57,167 bases of DNA from an uncultured Candidatus Saccharibacteria bacterium (GTDB taxonomy: Bacteria > Patescibacteriota > Saccharimonadia > Saccharimonadales > Saccharimonadaceae), in NCBI GenBank assembly GCA_964535835.1, contig CAZHUZ010000001.1, forward strand, positions 53,800 through 110,966, written 5' to 3'. The notes beneath the pieces were generated by a model that was given only the letters and a program-made list of their open reading frames with translations, did no database searches and was not told the DNA's origin. Both the position numbers and the translations under genes were made by a program. Shown piece after piece: positions 9,212 to 38,969 of this stretch; the first letter of the stretch is position 1; every line of letters begins with the position of its first letter.

Positions 9212-9921
9212 CGGATAGGCTCTAATGATTCAAGAGAGGTATTAAATATCTCATCAGCTTCAAGTATTTTTGCATCTTTACAGAATAAATCTCTCTGTTG
9301 TTGTGAAGTCTGATCCTGTTTAGCAGAGGGAAGTTCGGCTAGATTATAAAAATAATATTCTCCCACATGATATATTCGCCGCATTGTCGATAACTCATCT
9401 GGTAAGTAAGCGTAATTCTTTTCAGGTTGTTTGGCAGACTTGAAATAATCAGCGAGTAAAACATTTTTATCGGCTACACGAATAGTCATCTGATCACCAT
9501 TCATCCGCTTTACTTTGAGACCGGGCGCTGAACCACGAATATTACGATAGAATAGTACCCTGCAGTCATCATCCATAATTGATTTAATACTCGCAAATGT
9601 ATATGAATCGTCAACACTATCATAATAATATGCTATGTTGTTTTTGTATCCATATGGTACACGAAATAATACTTTTGTCTCCTTTAGTTGTAATAGATCA
9701 GTGTTAATCCTCCGCCAAGTTATATTATCCCTGACAATAGTTCGAGGTATAAACCCAGTATTTTTAGGCAGGGCTGGAACTTTCTCAGCCGCAACTTGAG
9801 TTTTGATTGTTGCGTCTGCCGACAGGAAGAATATCGTCATAAATCCAATGATTATTACACCAAATAATACCCAGCCAGTAATGGGATTTAATTGTTTTGT
9901 CAGTATTTCTTTTATATCCAT
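9208..9921 (-). CDS. hypothetical N-terminally anchored secreted/membrane protein
   Basis: 237 aa with ATG start and a single N-terminal TM helix (WVLFGVIIIGFMTIFFL). No recognisable motif. It is the last gene of the central-carbon operon. Confidence 0.5.
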   Translation of the reverse strand: MDIKEILTKQLNPITGWVLFGVIIIGFMTIFFLSADATIKTQVAAEKVPALPKNTGFIPRTIVRDNITWRRINTDLLQLKETKVLFRVPYGYKNNIAYYYDSVDDSYTFASIKSIMDDDCRVLFYRNIRGSAPGLKVKRMNGDQMTIRVADKNVLLADYFKSAKQPEKNYAYLPDELSTMRRIYHVGEYYFYNLAELPSAKQDQTSQQQRDLFCKDAKILEADEIFNTSLESLEPIR

Positions 9922-9953
9922 GTGCGATCCTTGTCTGTAGTCATTATACCTTA

Positions 9954-11147: not shown

Positions 11148-11155
11148 AATATCTA

Positions 11156-12064
11156 CTATATCTTTTTGTTTGTTGAACCAAATGCTTCAATCTTCTCTTC
11201 GACAACCCGTTGAACGGCATCGTACACCGTTGGCATGAGCTTGACGACTGCATACTCTTTAGGATTGTCATGGAGAACCTTTTCCAGCGTCGTACGAAAT
11301 ACATAGCGCATATCACTGTTAATATTGATCTTGCTTACACCGATCTTTGCTGCTTGCTCAAAATAATGCAGTGGCGTGCCGCTACCACCATGCAAGCTAA
11401 TCTGACATCCTATCGAATCACGTATTTGTTGGAGCAAATCAAGATCAAGTTGTTTTGGAACAGGATATTTACCATGTAAATTTCCGATCGCAGCGGCAAA
11501 GGTGTCAATACCCGTCGCCTCTACAAACGCCTTTGCACCTTCTGGAGTACTAAATGTCTTTTTTATCTCATCATAATTGATATCTTCTTCATGTAGATTA
11601 CTGCTGCCACCAAAATAATGAGGCTCAGACTCCACTAATGCTCCTGTAAATTTTGCATACTCAACGACTTCTTTAGTCTTGGCAATAATTTCTTCGTCTG
11701 AGGCATTATGATTTGCTTGACTGACATCGATATGGATAAACTCAAAACCAACATCGATAGCACGCTTGCAATCCTCAACTGTCGGGCTGTGATCGAGATT
11801 GAGATAGACCTCAATACCGTATTCTTTAGCGTAGTTATCGACCATATCGCGGATATTTTCGAGTCCCATCGCCGACACTTCACCATCACTAACTTCTATG
11901 AGCACCGGAGAATTTTTTGCTTGTGCAGCCCTAGCGATTGCAATGAGTGTTTCTTGATTATCGACATTAAATGCGCCAACGGCGAAGTGTTGTTGACGAC
12001 TGCGCTGCATCAAATGACGTGCGCGCAAACAGTTATCTCGAATATCATGAATAGTAAGGCCCAT
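11156..12064 (-). CDS. fba: class II fructose/ketose-bisphosphate aldolase
   Basis: FAVGAFNV...ETL start region, LNLDHS, HIDVS and LHGGSG motifs typical of class II aldolases. Confidence 0.85.
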   Translation of the reverse strand: MGLTIHDIRDNCLRARHLMQRSRQQHFAVGAFNVDNQETLIAIARAAQAKNSPVLIEVSDGEVSAMGLENIRDMVDNYAKEYGIEVYLNLDHSPTVEDCKRAIDVGFEFIHIDVSQANHNASDEEIIAKTKEVVEYAKFTGALVESEPHYFGGSSNLHEEDINYDEIKKTFSTPEGAKAFVEATGIDTFAAAIGNLHGKYPVPKQLDLDLLQQIRDSIGCQISLHGGSGTPLHYFEQAAKIGVSKININSDMRYVFRTTLEKVLHDNPKEYAVVKLMPTVYDAVQRVVEEKIEAFGSTNKKI

Positions 12065-12066
12065 AA

Positions 12067-13107
12067 TTAGTCCAACCTCTTTGCTTTATAGTTAGATGGT
12101 GCTTTTTCTAACCATTCTTTTAGCTCACGCGTTGTCAAGAGACCTTCTTGCGCACCCGGATATAGGACGACGCTTGCCGGCGTAATCGGCGCAAGCTGCA
12201 ACGCTCCTTCAAGGCTATATCCTTTTATGAGTGCACCAATAAAAGTACTGGCGTAGGCATCACCGCATCCAGTCCGCTCAACAGGAGGCGCAACGTCAGG
12301 ATAAATCGGCATAAATAAGTGTTGCTTGCCATCGCTTGCATAACTACCTGCTGGACCATCGGTGATGAGCACTATTTTTGGTCCGAGATCATGCATTTTC
12401 GCAAGTAACTCTTTGACGTTGTCATAATTACCGCCCGTAACCTGTACGGCCTCTTCGCGATTGAGCACAACTACTTCGGAGCGTTTATATACATGATGTA
12501 AGCGCTTGGCGCCAAACTTTATCTGAAATGTGCCTGGCTGAAATGCCAGTTTGACCTCAGGATAGCGATCGAGCCACTCCATAATATCGTCATGCATATC
12601 GACTGCATTTTCTGCGATAGAACTAAAGTATACCCATTTTGGGATCTCACTCTTATGGAGATGTGGCCAGTGATAATCATAGTGTTCATGGTTAATGAGG
12701 ATGGTACGATCATCTTTATACCACAACACGTAGTGATAATTTGTCTTTTTGCCACGTTGCAATTTGATCAAAAATGTATCGACACCTTTTTTGGCAAGAG
12801 TATCAACTACCTGACGTCCACGATCATCATTGCCTAAGTTGGTTGCCAATGAGCTATTGAGTCCAAGCTTGGCGAAGTTGACCGCCGCATTTGCAGCATT
12901 GCCAACTCCATAAATAACTGTTGAGCGCTCAAAAGGCACTTTCATGCCGTAGGGAATCTCAAGCCACTTTTCACCCTTGCCGTTATCCTGCACCCTACCC
13001 TGGTCTTCAAACAATCGTATAAAATCATCAATAACCGTATCTCCAACCGAGATAACATCGATACCGTATGGATTGTCGTTTACATCATCTTTTCGTTCAT
13101 CTGACAT
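12067..13107 (-). CDS. PfkB-family carbohydrate kinase
   Basis: GVGNAANAA N-terminal motif and C-terminal TGCGDAYASTFIGAL (PfkB signature 2). AAGGAG RBS. Confidence 0.8.
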   Translation of the reverse strand: MSDERKDDVNDNPYGIDVISVGDTVIDDFIRLFEDQGRVQDNGKGEKWLEIPYGMKVPFERSTVIYGVGNAANAAVNFAKLGLNSSLATNLGNDDRGRQVVDTLAKKGVDTFLIKLQRGKKTNYHYVLWYKDDRTILINHEHYDYHWPHLHKSEIPKWVYFSSIAENAVDMHDDIMEWLDRYPEVKLAFQPGTFQIKFGAKRLHHVYKRSEVVVLNREEAVQVTGGNYDNVKELLAKMHDLGPKIVLITDGPAGSYASDGKQHLFMPIYPDVAPPVERTGCGDAYASTFIGALIKGYSLEGALQLAPITPASVVLYPGAQEGLLTTRELKEWLEKAPSNYKAKRLD

Positions 13108-13109
13108 GA

Positions 13110-14108
13110 TTATTCTCCTTGGTGATACTGTGGATTAATTTTGATAAAGTCTTTTACTGATTCACAGATATGTGGGGCAGTGAGGTGAAAATAATCAAGT
13201 AATTCTTCAGGCTTGCCGGACTCTCCAAAGCGATCATGTATACCCAGCCGTCGTATCGGTACGGGTAGTGTATCTGACGCAAGCTCACACACTGCACTGC
13301 CAAATCCTCCGGCAATTTGCGCCTCTTCAACGGTAACGGCACGACCGCATTTTATGAGAGAGGGCAAAATAGTATCCTTGTCGAGTGGTTTTATAGTTGG
13401 CACATGTAACACCTCGGCCTCTATACCGGCATCAGCCAACAATTCTGCTGCTACGAGGCATTGATAGGTCATCGTACCCGTTCCCAGCAGACAGACATCA
13501 GTTCCTTTGCGAAGAACATAGGCTCGCCCAATTTCAAACGGTGATTCATCCGTGCTATATACGGGTGTTGGCTCTCGTGCAAGGCGTAGATAGGTTGGAC
13601 TGTCCTGGCGAGCAATAGCTAGTGTTGCTTTTTCAGCCTCTTTACTGTCACCGGGTGCAATCACTATCATATTTGGCAACACCCGCATCATTGCAATATC
13701 TTCAAGCATCTGGTGTGTCGCACCATCTGGACCAACCGAGATACCGGCATGTGAACCGACGATGCAACTAAACCGTTCGTTGAGGCATAGTGTTGTACGT
13801 ATTTGCTCCCAGTTTCGTCCGGGACTAAACGCAGCATAACTACTAGCAAAGGGTTTCTTGCCCATGCCACTCATCCCCGCAGCGACAGTGACAAGGTTTT
13901 GCTCAGCTACACCGACTTCGACAAAACGCTCCGGATGCGCTTCCTTAAATAAATGCATTTGCGTCGACTCTGTTAGATCAGCACAGAGTGCTACAACTCG
14001 CTCGTCTTCATCACCCGCCTGCTTCAACCCTTTGCCAAAACCTTTGCGGATGGGTTCTGTTTCGATATTAGAATTACCAATTTTTGAATTAAGGTAAAAG
14101 TTATTCAT
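13110..14108 (-). CDS. transketolase, C-terminal (pyrimidine-binding) subunit
   Basis: VEVGVAEQNLVTVAAGM and GPDGATHQ motifs. Start set at ATG 14108, giving an 8-nt overlap with the N-terminal subunit gene. Confidence 0.85.
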   Translation of the reverse strand: MNNFYLNSKIGNSNIETEPIRKGFGKGLKQAGDEDERVVALCADLTESTQMHLFKEAHPERFVEVGVAEQNLVTVAAGMSGMGKKPFASSYAAFSPGRNWEQIRTTLCLNERFSCIVGSHAGISVGPDGATHQMLEDIAMMRVLPNMIVIAPGDSKEAEKATLAIARQDSPTYLRLAREPTPVYSTDESPFEIGRAYVLRKGTDVCLLGTGTMTYQCLVAAELLADAGIEAEVLHVPTIKPLDKDTILPSLIKCGRAVTVEEAQIAGGFGSAVCELASDTLPVPIRRLGIHDRFGESGKPEELLDYFHLTAPHICESVKDFIKINPQYHQGE

Positions 14109-14961
14109 GTTCACTCCTGATTTTTCCTTCGAGTGTACGTAGTTTTTTGAGAGCATCACGCGCCTGTTCGCTATTTGGTGGAGCCCCATGCCAATGATAG
14201 TCATATTCCATAAAATCAACACCTCTACCCGGAACCGTATGAGCTATTATTACGCTTGGCTTATTGGTGATTGCACGCGCCATGCTACATGCGTCAATGA
14301 TGCTTTCGATATTATTGCCATCGATTTCCTGGACATGCCAGCCAAAACTCTCCCATTTTCCCCGTAGGTCCTCAAGTGGCATAACATCTTCTGTATTGCC
14401 GTCGATCTGAATATTGTTGCGATCAATGATGCCGATGAGATTGTGCAATTTGTACTTACCTGCAAACATCGCTGCTTCCCAGATATTTCCTTCGTTTAGT
14501 TCGCCATCACCCATCATGACATAGACCCAGCGTTGTGGACCGTGATCCATATAGTGCATGACATACGCCATACCGGCTCCCTGACTAAGGCCTTCACCCA
14601 AGGGACCGCTTGTCGTCTCCATACCCGGCAGACGCGTGCGCTCTGGATGGCCCTGTAATCGACTACCAAATTGACGAAGTGTCTCTAGCTCCTTAACCGG
14701 AAAATATCCGGCACGAGCCATCGTCGCATATCTCACCGGCACAGTATGGCCATTGCTAAGTATGAGAATATCTCTATCTTTTTGATCTGGATCATGTGGG
14801 TCGTGATTCATGACGTTAAAATACAGTGCAGTAAAAATATCAGCCATTCCGAGCGGGCCTGCACTATGACCTGATCCGGCCTGTTCAAGCATCTTTATAA
14901 TATCCTGACGAATTGTGTTCGCCATAGCATCGAGTTGTTTCAATGTCAGTTGCCCACTCAT
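14101..14961 (-). CDS. transketolase, N-terminal (TPP-binding) subunit
   Basis: GSGHSAGPLGMADI and GDGELNEGNIWEA motifs. Confidence 0.9.
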   Translation of the reverse strand: MSGQLTLKQLDAMANTIRQDIIKMLEQAGSGHSAGPLGMADIFTALYFNVMNHDPHDPDQKDRDILILSNGHTVPVRYATMARAGYFPVKELETLRQFGSRLQGHPERTRLPGMETTSGPLGEGLSQGAGMAYVMHYMDHGPQRWVYVMMGDGELNEGNIWEAAMFAGKYKLHNLIGIIDRNNIQIDGNTEDVMPLEDLRGKWESFGWHVQEIDGNNIESIIDACSMARAITNKPSVIIAHTVPGRGVDFMEYDYHWHGAPPNSEQARDALKKLRTLEGKIRSEHE

Positions 14962-30321: not shown

Positions 30322-30399
30322 TCCTCAAAATACTACACTAAATCTAGCCCGCATAGATGACATATGATACTATTCCGAAGTAATATTTGGGATACCTAT

Positions 30400-30969
30400 A
30401 TGAAACGCTATAAGCAGCAAAATGGAATTACTGAAATTATACTGGCATTTGTTGGTTTATTTATCATTGCTTCTATTATGGATGGTAATTCGTCTGGATC
30501 GTCAAATGTTAATACGTTTATTGCAATTAGCGGTTTAGTAATCGGTGGGTTTCTGTATGTAAAATATCATGACAAATTAAACGCACCAATCAGATTTTCA
30601 AATAGACCTGCTCAATTATTTGCCGATTTGGCAAAGGTTGATGCTATGAGTGGAGTAGAGTTTGAAAATTATGTAGCTGACCTATTACGTGCACGAAATT
30701 ATCGCGTGCAGATGCTTGGCGGGAGTGGTGATGGTGGTGTTGACCTCGTCGCACAACTCGGTATGGAAAAATATGCCATACAGGTCAAACGATATAGTAA
30801 ACCAATCAGCCGCAATGCAGTCTCCGATGCCGTCGCAGGTAAGAGCCTCCACCGCTGCACGCATGCGATGGTCATCACAAATAGCTACTTCACACCAAAG
30901 GCTCGTGGCTATACGCGACTTGCTAAATGTCAGTTAGCGAATAGAGAACTGCCCACCAAATTGATCTAA
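30400..30969 (+). CDS. membrane-anchored Mrr-type (PD-(D/E)xK) restriction endonuclease domain protein
   Basis: Two N-terminal TM helices, then FENYVADLL...GGSGDGGVDLVA...YAIQVKRY, matching the Mrr_cat D...D-x-(Q/E)-x-K core. The start could be 30364 or 30400. Confidence 0.7.
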   Translation: MKRYKQQNGITEIILAFVGLFIIASIMDGNSSGSSNVNTFIAISGLVIGGFLYVKYHDKLNAPIRFSNRPAQLFADLAKVDAMSGVEFENYVADLLRARNYRVQMLGGSGDGGVDLVAQLGMEKYAIQVKRYSKPISRNAVSDAVAGKSLHRCTHAMVITNSYFTPKARGYTRLAKCQLANRELPTKLI

Positions 30970-31020
30970 TCAGCAAATTATCCAAGATAAAAGTTAAACG
31001 GTTTGGTTTTTTTATTTGGG

Positions 31021-31797
31021 CTAATATTCATAGACTAATTTATTTCGTAAAATCTCGTTATCGATATTGTCAAAGAATAGCAATAACATTTCAAAACACT
31101 TTTCATAATCAGATTTTGATAACTTTACGTAATCATCTTGGTCGTATTTACTATCGTCAATACCTGCCGCCTTAAGATTGGAAAAAAAATTTGAATCTGG
31201 GAATGACTGGTTATGAACAATAATGTGCCGTAACTGCCAATACTCATGTATTCCTGAAACATATTCATCTTCAATTTTAATATCAAAATATCCCTTGAGT
31301 ATTCCTTGAACTTGTTTCATATTTTGAAAATTTAGTCGTTCTCTTGGATTTTTATCACCCTCAAGTTTCTCGATCAATAATTCACCCAGCTCGCTATCGG
31401 ACGACGCGATTAATATTTCATCAAGTGAGAAGCTGATGCTGCTACCTTTTTTCACTTTTAACTTTCTAAAGTTTTTTATCACCAGAGTATCGAACATTGA
31501 TCGCATAACTGATTCTGCATTACCAACAAGTAGTACCGTCGCCTGAGAGTATAGTAAGCTACTAATTTCCTTCTGTTTTTCTTCTACAGAACGAGCCATA
31601 TTATCAAAAACAGTATTAGCGTTCTTAACTTGCTTTTTGTATCCTATCGGTAAGTCAGTTAAGCCATCTCGTAGCCTTCTGAAAGAGTCTGTATAGATAG
31701 AATGTAAATTTCTAAAACTCGTAAATATTGCATCAATATCTGCTGTAGATGCTTCAAATTCTGATTTTACTGTTACAGCTATACTTTTCTTTGTCAT
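31021..31797 (-). CDS. HEPN-like putative RNase, third gene of the helicase-methylase operon
   Basis: 258 aa, mostly helical by composition. R-x4-H motif WQLRHIIVHN at residues 190-195. Starts 12 nt after the methyltransferase stop, with a GGTGAAGGG RBS region. Clearly more A+T-rich than its neighbours by eye. Confidence 0.5.
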   Translation of the reverse strand: MTKKSIAVTVKSEFEASTADIDAIFTSFRNLHSIYTDSFRRLRDGLTDLPIGYKKQVKNANTVFDNMARSVEEKQKEISSLLYSQATVLLVGNAESVMRSMFDTLVIKNFRKLKVKKGSSISFSLDEILIASSDSELGELLIEKLEGDKNPRERLNFQNMKQVQGILKGYFDIKIEDEYVSGIHEYWQLRHIIVHNQSFPDSNFFSNLKAAGIDDSKYDQDDYVKLSKSDYEKCFEMLLLFFDNIDNEILRNKLVYEY

Positions 31798-31809
31798 TAC
31801 CCTTCACCT

Positions 31810-34716
31810 TTACTTATGTTGGTATGATTCAATAACTTTTTGATCTTCGTCTGATATTCCATAGATTTTATAAATAAATTGATCGTTGTATCGAATATCA
31901 TTTTCAGTGTGAATCAAACTCTCTAATGGTATAACAAACGGGATTTTAGCCAGATCGCTCGTGTTAATCGGTAGAGCGCCTCCCTGCATATGCTGAAGCT
32001 TATATTTTTCACGATACCAGAAATTGATTAGATTTGAATTGAGCAACGCTTCAATATACTCTCCATCATCTGGATTTTTAGGCACAATTACATTTACTTT
32101 CCCACCAAGCGATTGATTGTTCTGAACATATGTAGCCCTAATACGTCCCGTCATCCTGGAAGTATAAATTACATCTGAATTAAGCTGTTTTTGTGCAGAT
32201 TGTCCTCCGTAGTCATCAATGTACTTATCTTCATATTTAATCTCGCCCTCATGAATCTGCGATGCTTCAATGAACTGAATATTAGAGCCTACCTTCTTAT
32301 ACGTAACCTTTTGCGTCGCAGAGGAAGCACAGAATATATCCGCCACACTGTCATCGCCAAGGCGAACACTTGTGCTTATATCAATTTTTTTCAAGATATC
32401 TCTGTATTCACTCACACAAACAGGCTCCTCAATCGGCTGAGGCAAGAGGATTTTCTTTAGCGGATTAGTGAGATCATAAATATTATTGAACTCACGATAG
32501 GTGATTGATTCATCTGGAGGACTATTTTGTAAAAGTGACACAAAAGTATAGGTGGCTGCCGAAAACACTTTTGCCCGTGCAAAATCCGATAAACTCACGA
32601 GTCGAATATCTCTAATAATATCTCTAAGACCTTTACAATTATCAAGGATCAGATACTGCTGAGGAGAAATATATGCGAGTATACCGGATATACTCAACTG
32701 TTTTATACCAAGCTCGAAGAAGTACGTGTATAGGTTTATCATTTTAGAGTGATGGGCTATTTTATAATCAGCAATTATCTCTTTAGTGCTTTTATCTATC
32801 TTGCGATAATCAATATATGGAGGGTTGCCGATCACTATGTCAAATCCATTCACCCCAAACATGTAATCGATATCAAAGAATTGAGCACATTTGGTACTGT
32901 CAAATGGGTCAAACGACTGTAGCTGCTTGGATCGCTGGCTACTGCTCAGACCAACCTGTGCCGTGAGAGACCGGTACTCTTGGCGTAGTTTTTGTTTGGA
33001 CTCTTTGGACCGAGCACGGAAATACTTGTCCCGCAGATCGGCAAGCTTGTCTCCGAGATTGTTTTCGCCAAATATATCGAGTGAATCACCCTCGGCAAGA
33101 GGTATCAAACTATTTGCTGTGATAAATTTGAAATCAAGGTTTGGCAATGGTTCATTTCGGAGCTTTTCCGGCACTTCATCGACTACCAGACTCAGCCATG
33201 CTCGCAGACGAGAAATGTCCGCCGCCATGGGATTGATATCGACACCATAGATGGTACTTTGCATAATACCGAGCTTGACTTCGTATTCATCAAGCTTGCG
33301 ATCGATACGCTGAAATATCCGTACCAGTAACTGCATCATACCCATAGGAAATGCTCCCGAACCACAGGCTGGGTCCAATACTTTTAGACGCTCTAAAGCT
33401 CGGCGTACTTCGTCACGATCGGCAGGACGCTTTTCAAATAGATGCTTAGTCTGATTGCTTTCGTCATTTGCCCACTCTTGTTCGGAAGTATCGATAAGCT
33501 TGTCGACGACGATAGTATGGTCAAGCACCTTACCATCGAGCTGGGTATAAAGATACTGCCTCAAGCTCTCACGACACATATAATCGACGATCTCACGTGG
33601 GGTGTAAAATGCTCCACTCGCTTTGCGTGCGTTTACTTTGGTCTCATCTACTTGTTCGGCAAGTAGGTTTTCAAATATTCGTCCGAGCATCTCGGGATCG
33701 ATAGCAACTTGCTCAAAATCAGGTGTTGATTCATCGGTTGTAAAATTGTATTCGTCAAAAAAATGAAATATATTTGCAAAATAGCCTGTCGGGAAACTAA
33801 TCGCATCATTCTGATCGAGCTCCGACTCATCAAATAGTCCGCCATTGAGATACGGTGTCTTCTGATCTTTGCGTTCGTCGATAGGAGTATTGAGCGTCGC
33901 AAAGAAAAGTTTGCGTAAATGTTCCACATAGTAGGTATCAGAGTTTGTGGTCACTGCAAAATATTTTTCACTCTCATTGATCACACCCTTTTTTCGTAAA
34001 AACCATACAAACAACAATCGTCCGATGAGGCGGTTAGTATACTGTTTTGCATCATCGTTTTCAAAGATATTTTTAGATACCAGGTGCTGTGTGAGATCGG
34101 TGAAAAACCGAGCAATTTCTTTGTAAAATTTCTTGTTTACTTCCTGCAATTGGAAACTATCCCACAATGCACTATGGAGACGCTCCTGCTCAAATATCCC
34201 TGACATATCAGACCAATTAGACAAAATAGTTTTTGCAGTATTGGTCAAATGGCCCTCTAATGTCAGTACTCTCACGAGTCCACGATTGCTGAGAGCGATT
34301 GTCATCGCATCGCCATCAGGATGCAAAAAAAAGTCTATCCCAATCGGTAGTTTTTGCTGACGAGTAAATTCAGCATCTTCGTAATTTGGCGTGAAATGCA
34401 CCGCAGCCATGATGCGTTGGCGCATACTTTTTTTGGCATCCTTGCCCAGACAGTAAAGTTTCGCCTGTACATGAGCATCGGGATCAACATTGAGACTGAC
34501 ACATGCTCGCTGACTCGTCAGAACAGGGTGCTTCAGAAACCATCCTTCGTGTTGGATGACTTTTTGATCCTGCAAAAACGCCTCGGTGTCTGACATAGAC
34601 GCGCCTAGTAATGCTACAATGCGTCGCGCCAATTCAAGTCCATGATCGTAGCCTGGATCTGATTTGAGCATATTTACTAATCGATCGATATCTTGCATGC
34701 TAGTTCGGTTTGGCAT
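31810..34716 (-). CDS. Eco57I/type IIG-like gamma-class N6-adenine DNA methyltransferase with C-terminal TaqI-like target-recognition domain; no recognisable nuclease domain
   Basis: 968 aa. Motifs: FYTPREIV (motif X), VLDPACGSGAFP (motif I), IYGVDINP, GNPPYI (motif IV). TRD-like LNSNLINFWY...GGALPINTSDLAKIPF. N-terminal helical region RLIGRLLFVWFLRKKG. The start overlaps the helicase gene by 17 nt. Confidence 0.9.
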   Translation of the reverse strand: MPNRTSMQDIDRLVNMLKSDPGYDHGLELARRIVALLGASMSDTEAFLQDQKVIQHEGWFLKHPVLTSQRACVSLNVDPDAHVQAKLYCLGKDAKKSMRQRIMAAVHFTPNYEDAEFTRQQKLPIGIDFFLHPDGDAMTIALSNRGLVRVLTLEGHLTNTAKTILSNWSDMSGIFEQERLHSALWDSFQLQEVNKKFYKEIARFFTDLTQHLVSKNIFENDDAKQYTNRLIGRLLFVWFLRKKGVINESEKYFAVTTNSDTYYVEHLRKLFFATLNTPIDERKDQKTPYLNGGLFDESELDQNDAISFPTGYFANIFHFFDEYNFTTDESTPDFEQVAIDPEMLGRIFENLLAEQVDETKVNARKASGAFYTPREIVDYMCRESLRQYLYTQLDGKVLDHTIVVDKLIDTSEQEWANDESNQTKHLFEKRPADRDEVRRALERLKVLDPACGSGAFPMGMMQLLVRIFQRIDRKLDEYEVKLGIMQSTIYGVDINPMAADISRLRAWLSLVVDEVPEKLRNEPLPNLDFKFITANSLIPLAEGDSLDIFGENNLGDKLADLRDKYFRARSKESKQKLRQEYRSLTAQVGLSSSQRSKQLQSFDPFDSTKCAQFFDIDYMFGVNGFDIVIGNPPYIDYRKIDKSTKEIIADYKIAHHSKMINLYTYFFELGIKQLSISGILAYISPQQYLILDNCKGLRDIIRDIRLVSLSDFARAKVFSAATYTFVSLLQNSPPDESITYREFNNIYDLTNPLKKILLPQPIEEPVCVSEYRDILKKIDISTSVRLGDDSVADIFCASSATQKVTYKKVGSNIQFIEASQIHEGEIKYEDKYIDDYGGQSAQKQLNSDVIYTSRMTGRIRATYVQNNQSLGGKVNVIVPKNPDDGEYIEALLNSNLINFWYREKYKLQHMQGGALPINTSDLAKIPFVIPLESLIHTENDIRYNDQFIYKIYGISDEDQKVIESYQHK

Positions 34717-37700
34717 AGTTGTATACTATCTCCATATTTTCCAGTATATGCTGTTTCGTCGATGCCTCCATCAGATATTTTGTTGGCTCAGTAATTAACA
34801 ATAGATCGGCGTCAGTCAACGGCTTATTTTGCTTGATTCGATCGTATGCTTTTCGCATACCATTCTCAAGTTGTTTCTCATACACACGATTTGTGCCACG
34901 TGTGAGAGCGTTGAAGATATCTGTCGTGTCTATACCTAGATTTGTCACGAGATAGTCTAGCACTTGGGTGTAAGATGGTTTCATCTTGCTGTCGCGTGGA
35001 CTCTCATACTCACTCGTCGCCAACATCTGTCCATAGCGAGAGATACGCGCTTCAACCGCCTCTTTGTCAAATTCTATTGCATCACGTATAGGATGGTTAT
35101 CCTCAGCTGTAGTCTGCATGTATGATAGCGCCGCGAGTGTATCAAATAGCTGCATCGTCCCTGCTCGTGGTTGTGATGCATAGAACCGCTGATGACCACC
35201 GATAACTTCAACTGATTCCTTGTTTTCTGCGTTTTTCACGTCAAATCGTACAAGTGTCAGAGCATCAGGGACGTTTTTGTTAACGACAGTCTTTGCAGGC
35301 AGCATACCCCATTTCCTCTTCGGTATACCATGATAAACACGACGTTTCGTTTCAAGATCCGACTCGGTGTCAAAACGGCGTAGGTCTGCGATATATCCAT
35401 CCTCGCCCAACGAGAAATCAGCTTCTTCCTCTAGGGCAGTCATGGCCTGTTGACGTAGTTGTTCATCTCCCGTAAGGAGTTTGAGCGTCGCATCGATATC
35501 AAGGTCATTTGCCGCATCGTCCAAGAAATCTACTGGTTTGGCTTTTTCTCCCAGGATTGACTGGTCTGTTCCTACTGTGTTGCGGATTAAATCAACCTTG
35601 TGTTGCAATCTTTCTACGAGACGGAGGTACTGCTCGAGTTGATGCTGTGGGTGCATATTGTAGATATATACGTTTTTATGCAGAGAACCGAGACGATTTA
35701 TACGACCATTGCGCTGGATCATCCGAACAGGATTCCAGTGCAAATCATAATTGATCAACACACCACAATCCTGTAGATTTTGTCCTTCACTCAGTACATC
35801 GGTACTAAATAGATAATCAAGTTCGGTATCAAGCGGCCCCATTTCATAGTGTTTTGCTATCGGTGCAAAACGTCCTGTGTAGTTTTCTACTAGTTTTTTG
35901 TTATGACCCGTAATGAATGCTGCATTTTCATGGTTGATCGCGTTACCAGTAAGCTGTGGGATACGCTTTTTTAGATACTCTATGGTATCAGCATAGAATG
36001 AAAATATGAGCACCTTTTTGCCGGCTGGCTGAGTATTGCGCAGATTTGATAGATGAGCCGCAAACGCCTCAAGCTTTTTATCTTCATCTGTCAATATTCT
36101 GACACATTGGAGAGCGCAATCAATAATCTTGAGATCGAATTCTATATCTGCTTTTAGCTCTGCGATATTGTGTGTGCGCTCTGAGATGTCGCTAGATTCT
36201 TCGTCGGTATCAAACACAATCTCAGTATCATCATCGCTAAATTCTTTGCGGATAGTATCGATATCTTTGATGGTGATCAGCTTGCCCTGATCGAGAGCAT
36301 CACGAAACGTCAGCAGTCTATCACGATACCTTCGTATGCTGATATCCAAGCTCTGCGGTGATGATTCAAGCCGCTTGAGATACCCAATACGAATAATATT
36401 ATGGATACTCATCTGAATACGTAAACGAAATCCATCTGATCCCTCTAGTTTATAAGCTCGAAGCTCCTCTACCGTCTTGTCATAAAATCTGTGCTGGTAC
36501 AGCATATCTCTATACAACGGCAATCCCAATGATAATACGAGTTGAAATATCATATCAAACGGAGAATTAGTCGGCAGCGCATCTTCGTCGATCATAGGTT
36601 TTTCGAGCGACCTAAGTGGATGTGATGAACGCTGCGTTTTTTCGAGTAATTCTTCTAGGCTATACGCAAATATTTTTGTAATAGGCAATGTGCCGTTGAA
36701 TGCACTCAGAACATCGCGAATCTTTTCAGCCTGTACCGACGTAAAGTCATAAGGCAATGAATCAACTATACCTTGAGGGAACTGTTTGAGGTTACCCTCT
36801 GAGTCTTTCAACCCGCCATAAGTTGCCTCAATACCCTGTCGTGTCGCCCGAACCATAAAGTGCGACAATGCAGGACGAAGTGCCTTTTTTACTTTGTTAA
36901 AATTAATTGTCTTACCTTGTTTAGCTTGCGCTTTAATTGAGGCATCAAGCGAACGGATCACTTCATCAAAATCACGGCTGCGAGGTGGTTCTTTTTCTTC
37001 ATTTGGTGTGTATAAAATTTTGTATGCACTACGGCTACCTTTTGCCGCAAGTTGGATTTGGTTGGCAAAATCAGACAGCTGATTGTTGATGGGTGTTGCT
37101 GTGAGCATGAGCACGTGGCTATTGGGATTCGCCGCCAACCAATCAAACATCATCTTGTACCTAGCGCCATTTTCTGATCGAAGATTGTGCGCCTCATCAA
37201 TCACAAATAGTCTCACTTGCGCGTCTTTATCTATTTGTCGTCGTCGATTTATCTCATCCTCGTTATGAAGTGATATGATCGAAACATCTGTTAAACCAAA
37301 TCCTTTTGATAGCTCACTTGTCCACTGGTTTTTGAGCGAAGCGGGCACTATTATCTCTACACGCTGTCGACCCTCCGGGCTATGTATATAATGATCGATC
37401 ACGCTCCCCGCAGTATATGTCTTGCCCAGCCCCACCGAATCAGACAGCATCGCCAATCGATAGTTTTTTAATTTTTTGATAAGTAGATTTGCATTACGCC
37501 GCTGAAATTCATATAGACTATTTTCGCGATTAAGTACATCATCATCCTCTAGCTCTTCTTTATATAGTTGATAGAGTGTAGCGATATACATCTCATATGG
37601 ACTAAACATCTGATCACCTACCGTCGACGTACTGAGGAGGCGACTAAATTCACCCGTCCATTCCTCTGCCTCATTCCAAAACTGATCAAACCAAAAGAGA

Positions 37701-38230
37701 TGCCCAATTTCTTGCGTCTCAGTCTTTGGCATAGAGGTGATGATACGTCCGTCTGCCTCCACGCTATTGAGTTCGGTGTTCCCCGTTAGACCTGCTCGCG
37801 TAAAATTACTCGACCCAATGATAGCGACATTTTCATTTGATCCATAGTTGCCAAATATATATGCTTTTGCGTGGAAAAAGGTCTTTTTGTAAATTTTTAC
37901 TTCTAGCTTATCTTCCTCTATTAGTGTGCGAATCCTGACGATAAGGTCTTTGTACGAAGACGTCTGCTCAAGCATTTCTAAATCACTAAAAATATCTTGA
38001 TCGGGGAAATCAATCTCAGGGTTTGATTTTTTATAACGAGGCGCAAGTGGTTCTTGGCCGATAAGTAATCTGATTTTTTTAAAATTTTCTAACTTATCAA
38101 TTAATAACTGTGTGCCAGGCAAGTCCCAATAGCCAGTCGCAATCGAAATTTCATCGTAGTTCTCACATAGCTGATCAAGAGTATCCTTGAGGACTCTCCT
38201 ATTATTATCGATTATTTTTGGCAATGACAT
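34700..38230 (-). CDS. PLD(HKD)-family nuclease domain fused to SNF2/SF2 helicase with about 330-aa uncharacterised C-terminal region
   Basis: 1176 aa. HKD motif FHAKAYIFG...IIGSSNFTRAGL. Helicase motif I SVGLGKTYT, motif II VIDEAHNLR, motif III LMLTATP, motifs V/VI LSEGQNLQ and QRNGRINRLG. Confidence 0.9.
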   Translation of the reverse strand: MSLPKIIDNNRRVLKDTLDQLCENYDEISIATGYWDLPGTQLLIDKLENFKKIRLLIGQEPLAPRYKKSNPEIDFPDQDIFSDLEMLEQTSSYKDLIVRIRTLIEEDKLEVKIYKKTFFHAKAYIFGNYGSNENVAIIGSSNFTRAGLTGNTELNSVEADGRIITSMPKTETQEIGHLFWFDQFWNEAEEWTGEFSRLLSTSTVGDQMFSPYEMYIATLYQLYKEELEDDDVLNRENSLYEFQRRNANLLIKKLKNYRLAMLSDSVGLGKTYTAGSVIDHYIHSPEGRQRVEIIVPASLKNQWTSELSKGFGLTDVSIISLHNEDEINRRRQIDKDAQVRLFVIDEAHNLRSENGARYKMMFDWLAANPNSHVLMLTATPINNQLSDFANQIQLAAKGSRSAYKILYTPNEEKEPPRSRDFDEVIRSLDASIKAQAKQGKTINFNKVKKALRPALSHFMVRATRQGIEATYGGLKDSEGNLKQFPQGIVDSLPYDFTSVQAEKIRDVLSAFNGTLPITKIFAYSLEELLEKTQRSSHPLRSLEKPMIDEDALPTNSPFDMIFQLVLSLGLPLYRDMLYQHRFYDKTVEELRAYKLEGSDGFRLRIQMSIHNIIRIGYLKRLESSPQSLDISIRRYRDRLLTFRDALDQGKLITIKDIDTIRKEFSDDDTEIVFDTDEESSDISERTHNIAELKADIEFDLKIIDCALQCVRILTDEDKKLEAFAAHLSNLRNTQPAGKKVLIFSFYADTIEYLKKRIPQLTGNAINHENAAFITGHNKKLVENYTGRFAPIAKHYEMGPLDTELDYLFSTDVLSEGQNLQDCGVLINYDLHWNPVRMIQRNGRINRLGSLHKNVYIYNMHPQHQLEQYLRLVERLQHKVDLIRNTVGTDQSILGEKAKPVDFLDDAANDLDIDATLKLLTGDEQLRQQAMTALEEEADFSLGEDGYIADLRRFDTESDLETKRRVYHGIPKRKWGMLPAKTVVNKNVPDALTLVRFDVKNAENKESVEVIGGHQRFYASQPRAGTMQLFDTLAALSYMQTTAEDNHPIRDAIEFDKEAVEARISRYGQMLATSEYESPRDSKMKPSYTQVLDYLVTNLGIDTTDIFNALTRGTNRVYEKQLENGMRKAYDRIKQNKPLTDADLLLITEPTKYLMEASTKQHILENMEIVYNYAKPN

Positions 38231-38297
38231 TAACTCTAGTATATCTTTTTCGCCCCTGTTTTTCTATACATCTCAAATAATAATGTATTATAAATCA

Positions 38298-38969
38298 ATG
38301 CGAAGATTTAAATACTATGACCTCATACTTGCGCTATTTGCTGCAGTACTATTGATATCAAACATATCCGCAACAAAAGTGGTGTCGTTTGGACCTATCA
38401 TCACCGATGGCGGTGCCGTGCTCTTCCCGATCATCTACATACTAGGTGATATACTGACAGAAGTGTATGGCTACAAGCATGCTCGTCGTGCAATATGGAT
38501 GGGATTTATTATCATGCTACTTGGAGTCGTCGTGTTTACTATTGTGCGGTATATGCCGCCGGCATCTGTATACACAGATCAAGCAGCGTTTGAAGCTGTC
38601 TTAGGATTTTTCCCGCGTATCGTGGCCGCCAGTCTCGTTGCCTATCTCGTCGGAGAATTCACTAACTCGTACATTCTCGCTCGTCTCAAAGTAAAGTCCA
38701 AAGGCAAGCATCTGTGGCAACGCCTGATGGCGTCATCAGTCCTCGGTGAACTATTTGATACAACGATATTTGCCTTTATCGCTTTCGGCGGAATTATCGT
38801 CGGCTGGGAAATGGTCATCTACATCCTCGTCGGCTGGGCGTTTAAGACCGGCGTCGAATTTCTCTTTTTACCCGTCACCTATCGCATCATCAACTTTCTC
38901 AAACGGTCAGAAAATATCGATCACTACGATCGCAAGACGGATTTCTCGCCATTTCATTTCAGTGCTTGA
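38298..38969 (+). CDS. yhhQ: queuosine-precursor transporter (YhhQ/VUT family, DUF165)
   Basis: Multi-TM protein with FPIIYILGDILTEVYGY and TTIFAFIAF motifs. The start could be 38283 or 38298. Convergent 16-nt overlap with tgt. Confidence 0.75.
   Translation: MRRFKYYDLILALFAAVLLISNISATKVVSFGPIITDGGAVLFPIIYILGDILTEVYGYKHARRAIWMGFIIMLLGVVVFTIVRYMPPASVYTDQAAFEAVLGFFPRIVAASLVAYLVGEFTNSYILARLKVKSKGKHLWQRLMASSVLGELFDTTIFAFIAFGGIIVGWEMVIYILVGWAFKTGVEFLFLPVTYRIINFLKRSENIDHYDRKTDFSPFHFSA

What the first reader, a model, noticed from the sequence alone, without database searches (positions are those of the whole stretch)
31021..38230. Tightly coupled PLD-SNF2 helicase / nuclease-less type IIG-like m6A methyltransferase / HEPN-like operon: a non-canonical restriction-plus-failsafe candidate
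**Seen in sequence.** Three co-directional genes are packed with a 17-nt overlap (34700-34716) and a 12-nt gap (31798-31809).
- Gene 1 fuses an HKD phospholipase-D-type nuclease motif (HAKAYIFG...GSSNFT) to a complete SNF2/SF2 motor (GLGKT, DEAH, TATP, QRNGRINRLG), followed by an unassigned tail of about 330 aa.
- Gene 2 is a 968-aa gamma-class N6-adenine methyltransferase (FYTP, DPACGSGAF, NPPY) with a TaqI-like TRD. I could find no PD-(D/E)xK or other nuclease motif in its N-terminus, so it looks like the modification and specificity module only.
- Gene 3 carries an HEPN-type R-x4-H motif.

**Established knowledge.** Type III and type ISP enzymes couple an SF2 translocase-nuclease to a methylase. 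DISARM class 1 uses an SNF2 helicase (DrmD), an adenine methylase (DrmMI) and a PLD protein (DrmC), but requires the DrmA/DrmB core, which is absent here. PrrC is an R-M-embedded latent anticodon nuclease.

**Inference.** This is a minimal three-component system. The methylase marks self. The PLD-SNF2 protein translocates on and cuts unmodified DNA. The HEPN protein acts as an RNA-targeting backup or abortive-infection arm.

The operon sits between msrB and the yhhQ/tgt housekeeping genes and next to a second nuclease gene, as expected of a defence island. I do not recognise this exact trio as a named defence system.
Basis: partly seen in the sequence, partly recalled or inferred. Interest (0 to 1): 0.8.

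Follow-up and report, generated by a model that had tools for sequence, protein, structure and literature searches.

The report
PLD-SNF2 restriction pair plus HEPN rider
This is a widespread but unstudied two-gene DNA restriction-modification module (a motor-nuclease plus a methylase that reads the target site), here carrying a portable RNase-type "backup" gene that elsewhere rides inside other restriction systems; it is a new variant of known defence logic, not a new kind of system.

Summary
Three co-directional minus-strand genes sit at exactly the stated coordinates, with the 17-nt overlap, the 12-nt gap and every quoted motif.

- **Conserved unit.** The unit is a pair, not a trio. Gene 1 (HKD/PLD nuclease + SNF2 motor) is followed directly by a gene-2-type methylase in 25 of 62 classifiable related loci, in both closest metagenomic relatives, and on a 15-kb Lactococcus plasmid.
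- **Third position.** This slot is hypervariable: RT, TIR, AbiEii, GmrSD, ABC ATPase, Schlafen or a second PLD.
- **Gene 3.** It never recurs with the pair. All eight other contexts examined are R-M loci: six type I (five of them showing hsdS and hsdR on either side), one helicase-methylase fusion, one MmeI-type. Its family has only R190 and H195 invariant and links to Pfam HEPN_RiboL-PSP.
- **Gene 2 N-terminus.** It is a confidently modelled, unassigned α/β domain with no nuclease match. Conserved acidic residues mean a cryptic nuclease is not excluded.
- **Closest characterised system.** This is MANTIS (Gao_RL, BREX-related type 2), not DISARM. Its defining DUF499 ATPase and DUF3780 protein are absent here.

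Verdict: a new variant of a known kind, of moderate interest.

The parts
34700..38230 (-). g1: 1176-aa HKD/PLD nuclease fused to an SNF2-type SF2 motor, with a conserved unassigned C-terminal tail
   Evidence: ORF. Pfam PLDc_2, RE_NgoFVII, SNF2-rel_dom, ResIII and Helicase_C. The catalytic and motor motifs are invariant in 18 homologues (A2). More than 5341 relatives at E<=1e-20.
37739..38155 (-). g1 PLD/HKD nuclease domain (aa 26-164). It has a single HKD motif (H120, K122, GSSN 139-142), so a dimer is needed to build one active site.
   Evidence: Pfam PLDc_2 at 26-164. H120, K122, G139, S140, S141 and N142 are invariant. The dimer requirement is established knowledge for Nuc and BfiI, and the MtsD dimer structure is described in bioRxiv 10.64898/2026.09.23.753747.
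35531..37525 (-). g1 SNF2 helicase-like ATPase core (aa ~236-900), carrying GLGKT, DEAH, TATP and QRNGRINRLG
   Evidence: Pfam. RapA and other SNF2 proteins are the best PDB sequence matches. The motifs are invariant in A2.
34703..35530 (-). g1 C-terminal tail (aa ~901-1176), conserved within the subfamily and unassigned
   Evidence: A5 has 11 invariant positions. No PDB or Pfam match. The tail is absent from the alignable part of the type III-linked relatives, whose matches end near residue 900.
31810..34716 (-). g2: 968-aa type IIG/IIL-like gamma-class N6-adenine methyltransferase with its own TRD
   Evidence: Pfam Eco57I, MmeI_Mtase, N6_Mtase, TaqI_C and MmeI_hel. PADLOC REase_MTase_IIG PDLC03601, 7.5e-160. 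44% identical to the methylase of L. cremoris plasmid NZ_CP016750.2.
34207..34716 (-). g2 N-terminal α/β domain (aa 1-170). It is family-specific and unassigned: a possible adaptor to g1, or a cryptic nuclease.
   Evidence: AF2 model with pLDDT 91.8. No Foldseek PDB hit at E<0.001. W59, E113, D114, G126, F129 and R149 are invariant; D128 and E152 are near-invariant (A6). Not DUF4391 by hhalign (probability 0.2%).
33727..34188 (-). g2 helical spacer (aa ~177-330), MmeI_hel-like
   Evidence: Pfam MmeI_hel at 228-295. The highest-probability Foldseek match is MmeI 5hr4_J (probability 0.85, 132 columns); that this match falls on the spacer is inferred, not read from the output. The invariant residues of A3 lie here.
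32467..33699 (-). g2 methyltransferase catalytic region (aa ~340-750), carrying FYTP, DPACGSGAF and NPPY
   Evidence: Translation. Pfam Eco57I at 488-718 and N6_Mtase at 342-399. PDB sequence matches to adenine methyltransferases and to BrxX/PglX.
31939..32262 (-). g2 TaqI-like target-recognition domain (aa 819-926)
   Evidence: Pfam TaqI_C, 6.3e-6, 26.9 bits against a cut-off of 26.5. In the lactococcal homologue a spare TaqI_C gene and an Mpi invertase lie beside the methylase.
31021..31797 (-). g3: 258-aa all-α protein, a divergent RiboL-PSP-type HEPN and a portable accessory embedded in R-M loci
   Evidence: No direct profile hit. The family has 312 representatives. 16 of 68 members hit PF18735, and P0299 passes the cut-off.
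31213..31230 (-). g3 R190-x4-H195 motif (RHIIVH), the predicted catalytic dyad
   Evidence: R190 and H195 are the only invariant columns among 68 diverse family members (A4). The motif lies at the end of helix 177-195 in the AF2 model.
34700..34716 (-). 17-nt overlap of the g1 stop with the g2 start (translational coupling)
   Evidence: The same 17-nt overlap occurs in the 71%-identical relative L096 (7289 vs 7305). Overlaps of 4-20 nt occur in L010, L013, L015, L017, L097 and L102.
31798..31809 (-). 12-nt g2-g3 spacer carrying a Shine-Dalgarno-like AGGTGA/GAAGG
38238..38304 (-). Two promoter-like sites upstream of g1 (consensus matches only)
   Evidence: The total count is about 1.7 sd above the shuffled expectation (31 found against a mean of 23.8, sd 4.3), so these are candidates, not evidence. 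No convincing intrinsic terminator lies between the three genes.
30364..30969 (+). Convergent 201-aa Mrr_cat nuclease gene, possibly travelling with g3
   Evidence: Pfam Mrr_cat, 6.4e-25. A g3 homologue (54% identical) in L098 is also followed by a convergent Mrr_cat gene that is 47% identical over the catalytic domain. Seen in only 2 of 9 contexts.

Best explanation
**The pair.** g1 and g2 form a self-contained, two-subunit, ATP-dependent restriction-modification module.
- g2 is a type IIG/IIL-like enzyme body without a recognisable nuclease. It binds a short specific site through its TaqI-like TRD and marks host DNA with N6-methyladenine.
- g1 supplies what g2 lacks. Its single HKD nuclease domain must dimerise to form one active site, and an SNF2 motor drives it.
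- g1 is recruited or licensed at unmethylated g2-bound sites, probably through the family-specific N-terminal domain of g2 or the C-terminal tail of g1. It uses ATP to translocate or remodel, and it cuts foreign DNA.

**The rider.** g3 is not part of that core. It is a divergent RiboL-PSP-type HEPN protein, a predicted metal-independent RNase, from a family that lives inside R-M operons of unrelated types. Here it fills the variable "accessory slot" that follows the pair. By analogy with PrrC/EcoprrI it most likely acts as a latent second-line (abortive) effector, released when restriction is blocked or overwhelmed.

**Shown here**
- the domain content
- the intact catalytic motifs
- the conserved coupling of g1 and g2
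- the variability of the third slot
- the exclusive R-M context of the g3 family

**Inferred**
- the physical g1-g2 complex
- which protein cuts
- the site requirements
- RNase activity of g3 and its control by the R-M proteins
For: **Coupling of g1 and g2**
- A 17-nt overlap joins them in the window.
- A g2-type methylase lies directly downstream of the PLD-SNF2 gene in all 7 of the closest genome loci that have enough flank.
- The same holds in 25 of 62 classifiable loci overall.
- It also holds in the 71%- and 63%-identical relatives, with overlaps of 17 and 14 nt.
- On the 15.4-kb L. cremoris plasmid NZ_CP016750.2, none of the 7 features annotated in the 11.4-kb stretch examined has a defence-type annotation other than the pair; the others are two recombinases, a spare TRD gene, a hypothetical protein and a replication protein.

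**Intact catalytic residues**
- HxK, GSSN, Walker A, DEAH and motif VI are invariant in 18 homologues.
- The methylase motifs are present.

**g2 lacks a recognisable nuclease**
- There is no MmeI_N or other nuclease Pfam hit.
- A high-confidence model (pLDDT 91.8) finds no nuclease fold match.

**Precedent**
- In MANTIS, a dimeric PLD-SF2 protein restricts unmethylated DNA specified by a separate N6A methylase (bioRxiv 10.64898/2026.09.23.753747).
- The type-2 BR prediction says the same (PMC12839542).

**g3**
- Only R190 and H195 are invariant in 68 diverse members.
- 16 of 68 members hit PF18735, and one passes the gathering cut-off over the full domain.
- All 8 external contexts are R-M loci, including a distant member.
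- A Shine-Dalgarno-like sequence lies 12 nt after the g2 stop.

**The third slot elsewhere** holds known suicide or backup effectors: AbiEii, TIR-TPR, RT, GmrSD, ABC ATPase, Schlafen, YhcG.
Against: - **No experiment.** In MANTIS itself, cleavage has not been reconstituted in vitro and no MtsD-MtsABC interaction was detected.
- **The family can be an add-on.** Thirty related PLD-SNF2 loci sit upstream of a complete type III Mod/Res system with its own nuclease. So the family can join a nuclease-proficient R-M system and is not always the sole nuclease.
- **Possible active site in g2.** The g2 N-domain conserves E113, D114, D128, R149 and E152 in its close family. This could be an unrecognised active site.
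- **g3 has no direct match.** It has no direct profile hit and no significant fold match in PDB or BFVD. Its HEPN assignment is transitive.
- **PrrC analogy is loose.** g3 lacks the NTPase sensor domain that regulates PrrC and RloC.
Confidence: 0.55

Rival explanations
1. g2 is a complete bifunctional type IIG restriction-modification enzyme whose N-terminal α/β domain is a divergent, unrecognised nuclease. On this reading g1 is an auxiliary motor-nuclease that extends or amplifies restriction, for example by processively degrading DNA after a first cut. This would match what it presumably does beside the complete type III systems.
For: - The best PADLOC model for g2 is REase_MTase_IIG (7.5e-160), and its alignment includes residues 44-340.
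- The N-domain of the close family has invariant E113, D114 and R149 and near-invariant D128 and E152 on or near β-strands.
- 30 of 62 related PLD-SNF2 loci accompany a type III Mod plus a Res that carries RE_endonuc.
- Milman et al. describe the g2-like gene as homologous to the type IIG gene Cj0031 (PMC9881135).
Against: - There is no D...(D/E)xK pattern. The strand where ExK would sit reads (L/V)-S-x-x-G.
- No nuclease Pfam hit.
- Foldseek matches to nucleases (EcoT38I, DpnI, RecE) have probability <=0.06 and E>=0.9.
- REBASE-derived "type IIG" labels have also been applied to nuclease-free PglX (PMC12707154).
- An obligatory, overlapping PLD-SNF2 partner across 25-71% identity is not expected for a self-sufficient enzyme.
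Confidence: 0.2
2. g1 is an autonomous modification-dependent (type IV, SauUSI-like) enzyme whose C-terminal tail reads modified bases. On this reading g2 is an independent solitary methylase or type IIG enzyme, and the adjacency only reflects defence-island clustering.
For: - SauUSI has the same order of N-terminal PLD, then SF2 ATPase, then a C-terminal reader (PMC12707154).
- g1 has a conserved 280-aa tail of unknown function.
- An Mrr_cat gene lies next door, so the site does collect defence genes.
Against: - Start/stop overlap with the methylase is conserved across many phyla.
- The tail has no SRA or other reader match.
- 55 of 62 classifiable relatives sit directly upstream of a DNA methylase gene.
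- An m6A-dependent nuclease translationally coupled to an m6A methylase would be self-toxic.
Confidence: 0.08
3. The locus is a decayed or minimal remnant of a MANTIS / BREX-related type-2 system that has lost its DUF499 ATPase and DUF3780 gene and no longer restricts. It would act as a methylase only, with a relic helicase.
For: - g1 shares the defining N-terminal HKD plus helicase architecture of type-2 BR helicases.
- It gives partial hits to PLD_Helicase (PADLOC 3.5e-24) and to phospholipD_antiphage.
Against: - All catalytic motifs are intact and invariant.
- The two-gene arrangement recurs in 25 loci and on small plasmids, with no DUF499 among the neighbouring genes that were scanned.
- g2 is a TRD-bearing Eco57I/MmeI-type enzyme with its own family-specific N-domain, not the loader-dependent MtsC type.
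- The NCBIfam score is 143 against a cut-off of 1100.
Confidence: 0.07

Closest known systems
MANTIS (= Gao_RL / Gao_29; DUF499-centred BREX-related type-2 system): MtsA-MtsB-MtsC-MtsD
   Same: - The effector has an N-terminal single-HKD PLD nuclease fused to an SF2 helicase-like ATPase.
- A separate N6-adenine methylase defines self.
- Unmethylated DNA is restricted.
- The catalytic histidine sits at almost the same position (MtsD H122, g1 H120).
   Different: - There is no DUF499 AAA+ ATPase (MtsA) and no DUF3780 protein (MtsB) in or near the locus.
- g2 is an Eco57I/MmeI-type methylase with its own TaqI-like TRD and helical spacer, not a loader-dependent methylase.
- The g1 motor is SNF2-type (RapA is the best PDB match) and carries an extra 280-aa tail.
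- The NCBIfam equivalog score is far below its cut-off (143 vs 1100).
Type III restriction-modification (Mod2Res1, e.g. EcoP15I)
   Same: - It is a two-gene system.
- The methylase subunit carries the specificity.
- A separate SF2 ATPase-nuclease subunit is recruited to unmethylated asymmetric sites.
- Hemimethylation and site-orientation effects are expected.
   Different: - Type III Mod is beta-class with an internal TRD, whereas g2 is gamma-class with a C-terminal TaqI-like TRD.
- Type III Res has a C-terminal PD-(D/E)xK nuclease, whereas g1 has an N-terminal HKD nuclease and an SNF2 motor.
- The gene order is reversed, with the motor gene first.
Type IIG/IIL single-chain enzymes (MmeI, Eco57I, Cj0031)
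   Same: g2 shares the helical spacer, the gamma-class methylase and the single-chain TRD layout. PADLOC calls it REase_MTase_IIG.
   Different: - The N-terminal PD-(D/E)xK nuclease of MmeI-type enzymes is not detectable; a different, unassigned α/β domain takes its place.
- An obligatory partner motor-nuclease gene overlaps it.
PrrC / EcoprrI and other R-M-embedded HEPN proteins (Anantharaman et al. 2013, PMC3710099)
   Same: An Rx4-6H HEPN protein is encoded inside R-M operons, and g3 homologues lie between hsdS and hsdR exactly as prrC does. Such proteins are predicted to be a latent second-line RNase.
   Different: - g3 has no ABC-ATPase or other NTPase sensor domain.
- It belongs to the RiboL-PSP/AbiD-F-related branch, with a long N-terminal helical hairpin.
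- No activity or regulation has been tested.
SauUSI (type IV) and CglI/NgoAVII (ATP-dependent PLD restriction enzymes)
   Same: PLD-family nuclease activity is coupled to an ATP-driven SF2 motor. The g1 PLD domain hits the Pfam RE_NgoFVII model.
   Different: - SauUSI is autonomous and modification-dependent, with an SRA reader.
DISARM class 1
   Same: It contains an SNF2 helicase (DrmD), an adenine methylase (DrmMI) and a PLD protein (DrmC). g1 gives partial DrmD hits.
   Different: - The DrmA/DrmB (DUF1998) core is absent.
- The DrmD equivalog score is 162 against a cut-off of 610.
- The PLD domain is fused to the helicase rather than encoded separately.

Membership tests
MANTIS / BREX-related type-2 (Gao_RL) | DUF499 AAA+ ATPase (MtsA/HmaC-like) in the locus | tested here: not met
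   The operon has only three genes and is flanked by msrB/Mrr_cat on one side and yhhQ/tgt on the other. The Pfam scan of 10 neighbours shows no DUF499.
MANTIS / BREX-related type-2 (Gao_RL) | Standalone DUF3780 protein (MtsB), present in 98% of type-2 BR loci | tested here: not met
   No such gene is present. g3 has no Pfam hit, and its family is HEPN_RiboL-PSP-like.
MANTIS / BREX-related type-2 (Gao_RL) | Helicase with an N-terminal HKD nuclease replacing the TUDOR domain | tested here: met
   PLDc_2 at residues 26-164 lies ahead of the SNF2 core. However, the NCBIfam phospholipD_antiphage score is 143.5 against a cut-off of 1100, so g1 is not an equivalog.
DISARM class 1 | DrmA (helicase) and DrmB (DUF1998) core genes | tested here: not met
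   They are absent from the locus and its neighbours. g1 scores 162.5 against the DrmD cut-off of 610.
Type IIG/IIL R-M enzyme (MmeI/Eco57I type) | Gamma-class N6A methylase plus TRD in one polypeptide | tested here: met
   Eco57I, MmeI_Mtase, MmeI_hel and TaqI_C hits, plus the NPPY and DPACGSGAF motifs.
Type IIG/IIL R-M enzyme (MmeI/Eco57I type) | N-terminal PD-(D/E)xK endonuclease domain in the same polypeptide | tested here: inconclusive
   - No nuclease Pfam hit.
- No D..ExK pattern.
- The pLDDT 91.8 model has no significant nuclease fold match.
- Conserved E113, D114, D128, R149 and E152 leave a cryptic site possible.
Type III R-M | Beta-class Mod (N6_N4_Mtase) and a Res with a C-terminal PD-(D/E)xK nuclease | tested here: not met
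   g2 is Eco57I/gamma-class, and g1 has an N-terminal PLD nuclease. True type III pairs were seen only beside distant g1 relatives.
HEPN superfamily (RiboL-PSP-HEPN, PF18735) | Conserved Rx4-6H motif as the dominant conserved feature | tested here: met
   R190 and H195 are the only invariant columns in 68 diverse members, and the polar H191 follows R.
HEPN superfamily (RiboL-PSP-HEPN, PF18735) | Match to the family profile | tested here: inconclusive
   - g3 itself has no hit.
- 16 of 68 family members hit PF18735, with a best E-value of 1.5e-7.
- P0299 scores 32.0 bits against a cut-off of 28.4 over model positions 9-190 of 191.
- P0299 matches the g3 profile at 2.6e-14. The link is therefore transitive.
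HEPN superfamily (RiboL-PSP-HEPN, PF18735) | All-α helical-bundle fold similar to solved HEPN structures | tested here: inconclusive
   The model is all-α (pLDDT 81). Foldseek finds no PDB or BFVD match at E<0.001.
PrrC/RloC-type anticodon nucleases | N-terminal ABC-type NTPase domain regulating the HEPN domain | tested here: not met
   g3 is 258 aa with no P-loop and no ATPase hit.
PrrC/RloC-type anticodon nucleases | Gene embedded in an R-M operon | tested here: met
   This holds in the window and in all 8 external contexts.
SauUSI-type type IV enzymes | C-terminal modified-base reader (SRA) | tested here: not met
   The tail profile (A5) has no PDB or Pfam match.

The most novel reading that the evidence does not exclude
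The PLD-SNF2 / N-domain-methylase pair would be a distinct, autonomous class of ATP-dependent restriction-modification system. Specificity and methylation would come from a nuclease-free type IIG-like subunit, and cleavage from a dimerising HKD-SNF2 subunit docked through the family-specific N-domain. No AAA+ loader would be needed, unlike in MANTIS and BREX. The gene slot after the pair would be a docking site for interchangeable abortive effectors, and the HEPN protein here would be held inactive by the R-M complex and released when restriction is inhibited.
Probability: 0.3. Interest if true: 0.65.

Novelty: new variant of a known kind. Interest (0 to 1): 0.48.

Why it matters
**A minimal comparator for MANTIS.** If the pair works as proposed, it is the minimal form of the methylation-guided PLD-helicase restriction logic just described for MANTIS. 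There, a AAA+ loader and a co-regulator are needed before the methylase can act. A two-protein version with a self-targeting methylase would be a simpler system for asking three questions:
- how an HKD-SF2 dimer is licensed by a methylase
- why site orientation matters
- what ATP hydrolysis does

In-vitro reconstitution of MANTIS restriction has so far failed.

**Annotation.** Current tools label such loci as a lone "type IIG" enzyme plus an unassigned helicase. Many genomes and dairy plasmids are therefore probably mis-described.

**A new HEPN branch.** The g3 family adds a compact, sensor-less HEPN branch that is found only inside R-M operons. It is a clean test case for the 2013 prediction that R-M complexes hold latent RNases in check.

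**Tractable homologue.** The lactococcal plasmid homologue, with its invertible TRD, is experimentally tractable and relevant to starter-culture phage resistance.

Tried and rejected
1. **Trio conservation.** tblastn with g3 and with the Mrr protein against the 80 PLD-SNF2 loci gave no hit. The two closest g1 relatives carry a DEAD helicase plus McrBC, or GmrSD, in place of g3. The trio is rejected as a unit.
2. **DISARM membership.** Rejected on cut-offs and on the missing core genes.
3. **Fold assignment of g3.** Foldseek against PDB and against BFVD gave only helical-bundle noise. PDB profile searches also gave nothing.
4. **Fold assignment of the g2 N-terminus.** There was no significant hit; the only plausible match was MmeI, which I take to fall on the helical spacer.
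5. **DUF4391 idea.** I tested whether the g2 N-domain is a DUF4391 domain. DUF4391 is fused to the distant IIG-like methylases (hhalign 94.8%) and stands alone in the type III-linked operons. hhalign of the window-type family against DUF4391 gave a probability of 0.2%, and only the helical segment 175-211 aligns with the DUF4391-bearing methylases. Homology is not shown; the two domains are only positionally equivalent.
6. **g1 C-terminal tail.** The profile search against PDB and Pfam found nothing.
7. **Phase-variation repeats or a TRD shufflon in the window.** None were found, unlike in the lactococcal homologue.
8. **Conserved third gene beside g1-g2 pairs.** All-against-all BLASTP of 13 candidates gave no hits.
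9. **Literature.** I searched for a name for the pair. Only a table entry in PMC9881135 turned up, and DUF4391 appears in two unrelated papers.

Full report
**1.

The ORF scan finds three minus-strand genes at exactly the stated coordinates:
- g1: 34700-38230, 1176 aa
- g2: 31810-34716, 968 aa
- g3: 31021-31797, 258 aa

The remaining points also check out.
- g1 and g2 overlap by 17 nt, and the g2 ATG sits inside the last codons of g1.
- g2 and g3 are 12 nt apart. The spacer AGGTGAAGGGTA looks like a ribosome-binding site.
- Every quoted motif is present.
- Pfam confirms a PLD domain (26-164), an SNF2/ResIII/Helicase_C core in g1, and Eco57I/MmeI-type methylase, TaqI_C and weak MmeI_hel hits in g2. 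g3 hits nothing in Pfam, PADLOC or NCBIfam.
- The neighbours are msrA, msrB, a convergent Mrr_cat gene, yhhQ and tgt.
- GC drops to 0.34 over g3 and the 3' end of g2, downstream of its TRD.
- No internal terminator-like site is convincing, and there are no shufflon-type repeats.

**2. The conserved unit is a pair.**

g1 belongs to a very large family, with more than 5341 proteins at E<=1e-20. Many are about 1170 aa long and 41-46% identical, and they carry only generic names. In 18 homologues the HxK and GSSN nuclease residues and all motor motifs are invariant.

A scan of one genome per species returned 80 loci. Their partners fall out as follows.
- In all seven of the closest loci with enough downstream DNA, a g2 homologue (34-42% identical) follows directly, usually with a 4-20 nt overlap.
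- Of the 62 classifiable loci, 25 have a g2-type methylase downstream, 30 have a type III Mod gene there (with a Res-like match further downstream in 25 of them), and 7 have something else (Pfam confirmation).
- The 71%- and 63%-identical metagenomic relatives have the same overlapping methylase.
- So does the 15.4-kb Lactococcus cremoris plasmid NZ_CP016750.2. In the 11.4 kb examined, the other annotated genes are a spare, inverted TaqI_C gene, an Mpi invertase, a second recombinase, a hypothetical protein and a replication protein.
- The plasmid methylase carries the same N-domain as g2 (E 7e-72) and is 44% identical to it.

**3. The third position is a variable accessory slot.**

No g3 or Mrr homologue occurs in any of the 80 loci. 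The genes that follow the pair share no detectable similarity with one another. Where they can be named, they are mostly known defence or suicide effectors:
- SMC/AAA_15 ABC ATPases
- a reverse transcriptase
- TIR-TPR
- YhcG
- AbiEii
- GmrSD (twice)
- a second NgoFVII-like PLD
- a DEAD helicase next to McrBC
- a Schlafen/AlbA_2 gene inserted between the two core genes

Two loci have a C-protein-like HTH gene overlapping the start of g1.

**4. g3 is an HEPN protein that lives inside R-M operons.**

The word-indexed search found only 12 relatives. A full profile search found 312 cluster representatives. The evidence for HEPN membership is:
- In 68 diverse members, only R190 and H195 are invariant, and F157 and Q158 are nearly so.
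- Sixteen of the 68 match Pfam HEPN_RiboL-PSP. P0299 passes the gathering cut-off over essentially the whole model.
- That family was described as distantly related to AbiD and AbiF (PMC3710099).

The AF2 model (pLDDT 81) is all-α with a long N-terminal hairpin. It finds no significant structural neighbour, so the assignment is transitive and sequence-based.

Every context examined is an R-M locus:
- five type I systems in which the gene lies between hsdS and hsdR, often with a 4-nt overlap
- a sixth type I system, this one holding the distant member P0299, which lies just upstream of hsdR with one unassigned gene between it and hsdS
- a 1415-aa ResIII-Eco57I fusion
- an MmeI-type gene

This is the arrangement that Anantharaman et al. 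(2013) generalised from PrrC/EcoprrI, proposing a latent RNase held in check by the R-M complex. Rakesh and Krishnan (2026) list HEPN among the "backup effectors" of BREX-related systems. Unlike PrrC, g3 has no NTPase sensor domain.

**5. Is g2 nuclease-less?**

The model of the first 340 residues is very confident (pLDDT 91.8). It shows an α/β domain (1-170) followed by a helical region.
- Foldseek finds nothing significant. The highest-probability match is MmeI, which I take to fall on the helical spacer, and the nuclease hits are at chance level.
- There is no D...(D/E)xK pattern.
- Within the close family, however, W59, E113, D114, G126, F129 and R149 are invariant, and D128 and E152 are nearly so.

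An unrecognised active site therefore cannot be excluded.

In more distant PLD-SNF2 partners the same position is taken by a DUF4391-like domain fused to the methylase (hhalign 94.8%). In the type III-linked operons a standalone DUF4391 gene sits between the PLD-SNF2 gene and mod. The window-type N-domain shows no detectable homology to DUF4391 (0.2%). Its equivalent position suggests an adaptor role, but this is inference only.

**6. Comparison with known systems.**

- **DISARM** is excluded. There is no DrmA or DrmB, and the DrmD score is 162 against a cut-off of 610.
- **Type-2 BREX-related systems / Gao_RL / MANTIS** are the closest described systems. They comprise a DUF499 ATPase, a DUF3780 protein, an N6A methylase and an N-terminal-HKD helicase (PMC12839542; bioRxiv 10.64898/2026.09.23.753747). 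In MANTIS the PLD-helicase is a dimer with one active site. It restricts unmethylated DNA and prefers inverted site pairs.
- **The window locus** shares that effector architecture but lacks both defining extra genes. It also uses a TRD-bearing Eco57I/MmeI-type methylase.
- **PADLOC models** would label only g2, as type IIG. The best g1 model is an "HKD+Snf2" model, whose "C3a" prefix I read (from memory, unverified) as a CRISPR type III accessory label.

**7. Mechanism and verdict.**

Most likely (confidence about 0.55), g2 recognises and methylates a specific site. A g1 dimer is licensed at unmodified g2-bound sites and cuts using ATP. g3 is a portable second-line HEPN RNase.

The main rival (about 0.2) is that g2 is a complete type IIG enzyme and g1 is an amplifier. 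This is suggested by the 30 loci where relatives of g1 accompany type III systems (Res-like matches in 25).

However, the trio is not a system, the logic has close precedents, and the pair has been seen before. It rates as a new variant of a known kind, of moderate interest, with a tractable lactococcal homologue available for experiments.

Noticed in passing
L026-L089 (e.g. L043 10004-19090; L052 9653-18782; L062 10001-18954): About 30 loci show a conserved four-gene operon. It runs PLD-SNF2 (~1080-1100 aa), then a standalone DUF4391 protein (~210-270 aa), then type III Mod (N6_N4_Mtase), then type III Res (ResIII+RE_endonuc). DUF4391 is mentioned in only two unrelated papers of the searchable library, so this association appears undescribed there.
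   Followed up: partly
L078 13311-16931, L047 15386-19348, L032 13294-16740, L068 13318-16872, L050 5134-9447, L051 13363-17931, L030 13156-17235: Distant IIG-like methylases (1150-1520 aa) paired with PLD-SNF2 carry an N-terminal DUF4391-like domain (hhalign 94.8%, E 5e-8 against the standalone proteins). The window-type methylase has a different, unassigned domain at the same position.
   Followed up: yes
window 30364-30969 (+) and L098 2357-2935 (-): A small Mrr_cat nuclease gene lies convergent to g3 in the window. A 47%-identical one (over the catalytic domain) lies convergent to a 54%-identical g3 homologue behind an unrelated MmeI-type gene. This could be a g3 + Mrr cassette, but it is seen in only 2 of 9 contexts.
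   Followed up: partly
L090 7091-7999 and L092 6228-7139: Beside g3 homologues in two type I R-M loci lies a ~302-aa protein (the two copies are 52% identical) with its own HEPN-like motif, GLRNRLTHGEY. It has no precomputed Pfam hit.
   Followed up: no
L102 (L. cremoris JM1 plasmid NZ_CP016750.2) 8763-10230: Next to the homologous pair lie an inverted, separately annotated TaqI-like specificity-domain gene and an Mpi-family invertase. This implies phase-variable specificity by TRD inversion. No such repeats or invertase exist in the window.
   Followed up: partly
L047 13427-14770: A Schlafen/AlbA_2-HATPase_c_4 gene is inserted between the PLD-SNF2 gene and its methylase, so accessory genes can also sit inside the pair.
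   Followed up: no
window 38187-38969 (+): The longest yhhQ ORF (TTG start) overlaps the g1 start by 44 nt in divergent orientation. The Vut_1 domain begins only at residue 74, so the real yhhQ start is probably further downstream, leaving room for the g1 promoter.
   Followed up: no
window 9001-11000: A second low-GC stretch (0.36, against about 0.44-0.47 around it) overlaps the start of a co-directional minus-strand gene run (9954-14961). It was not examined.
   Followed up: no
window 31001-33000: GC is 0.34-0.39 over g3 and the TRD-encoding 3' part of g2, against 0.42-0.45 for the rest of the operon. This is consistent with the specificity and accessory end having been exchanged separately from the core.
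   Followed up: no
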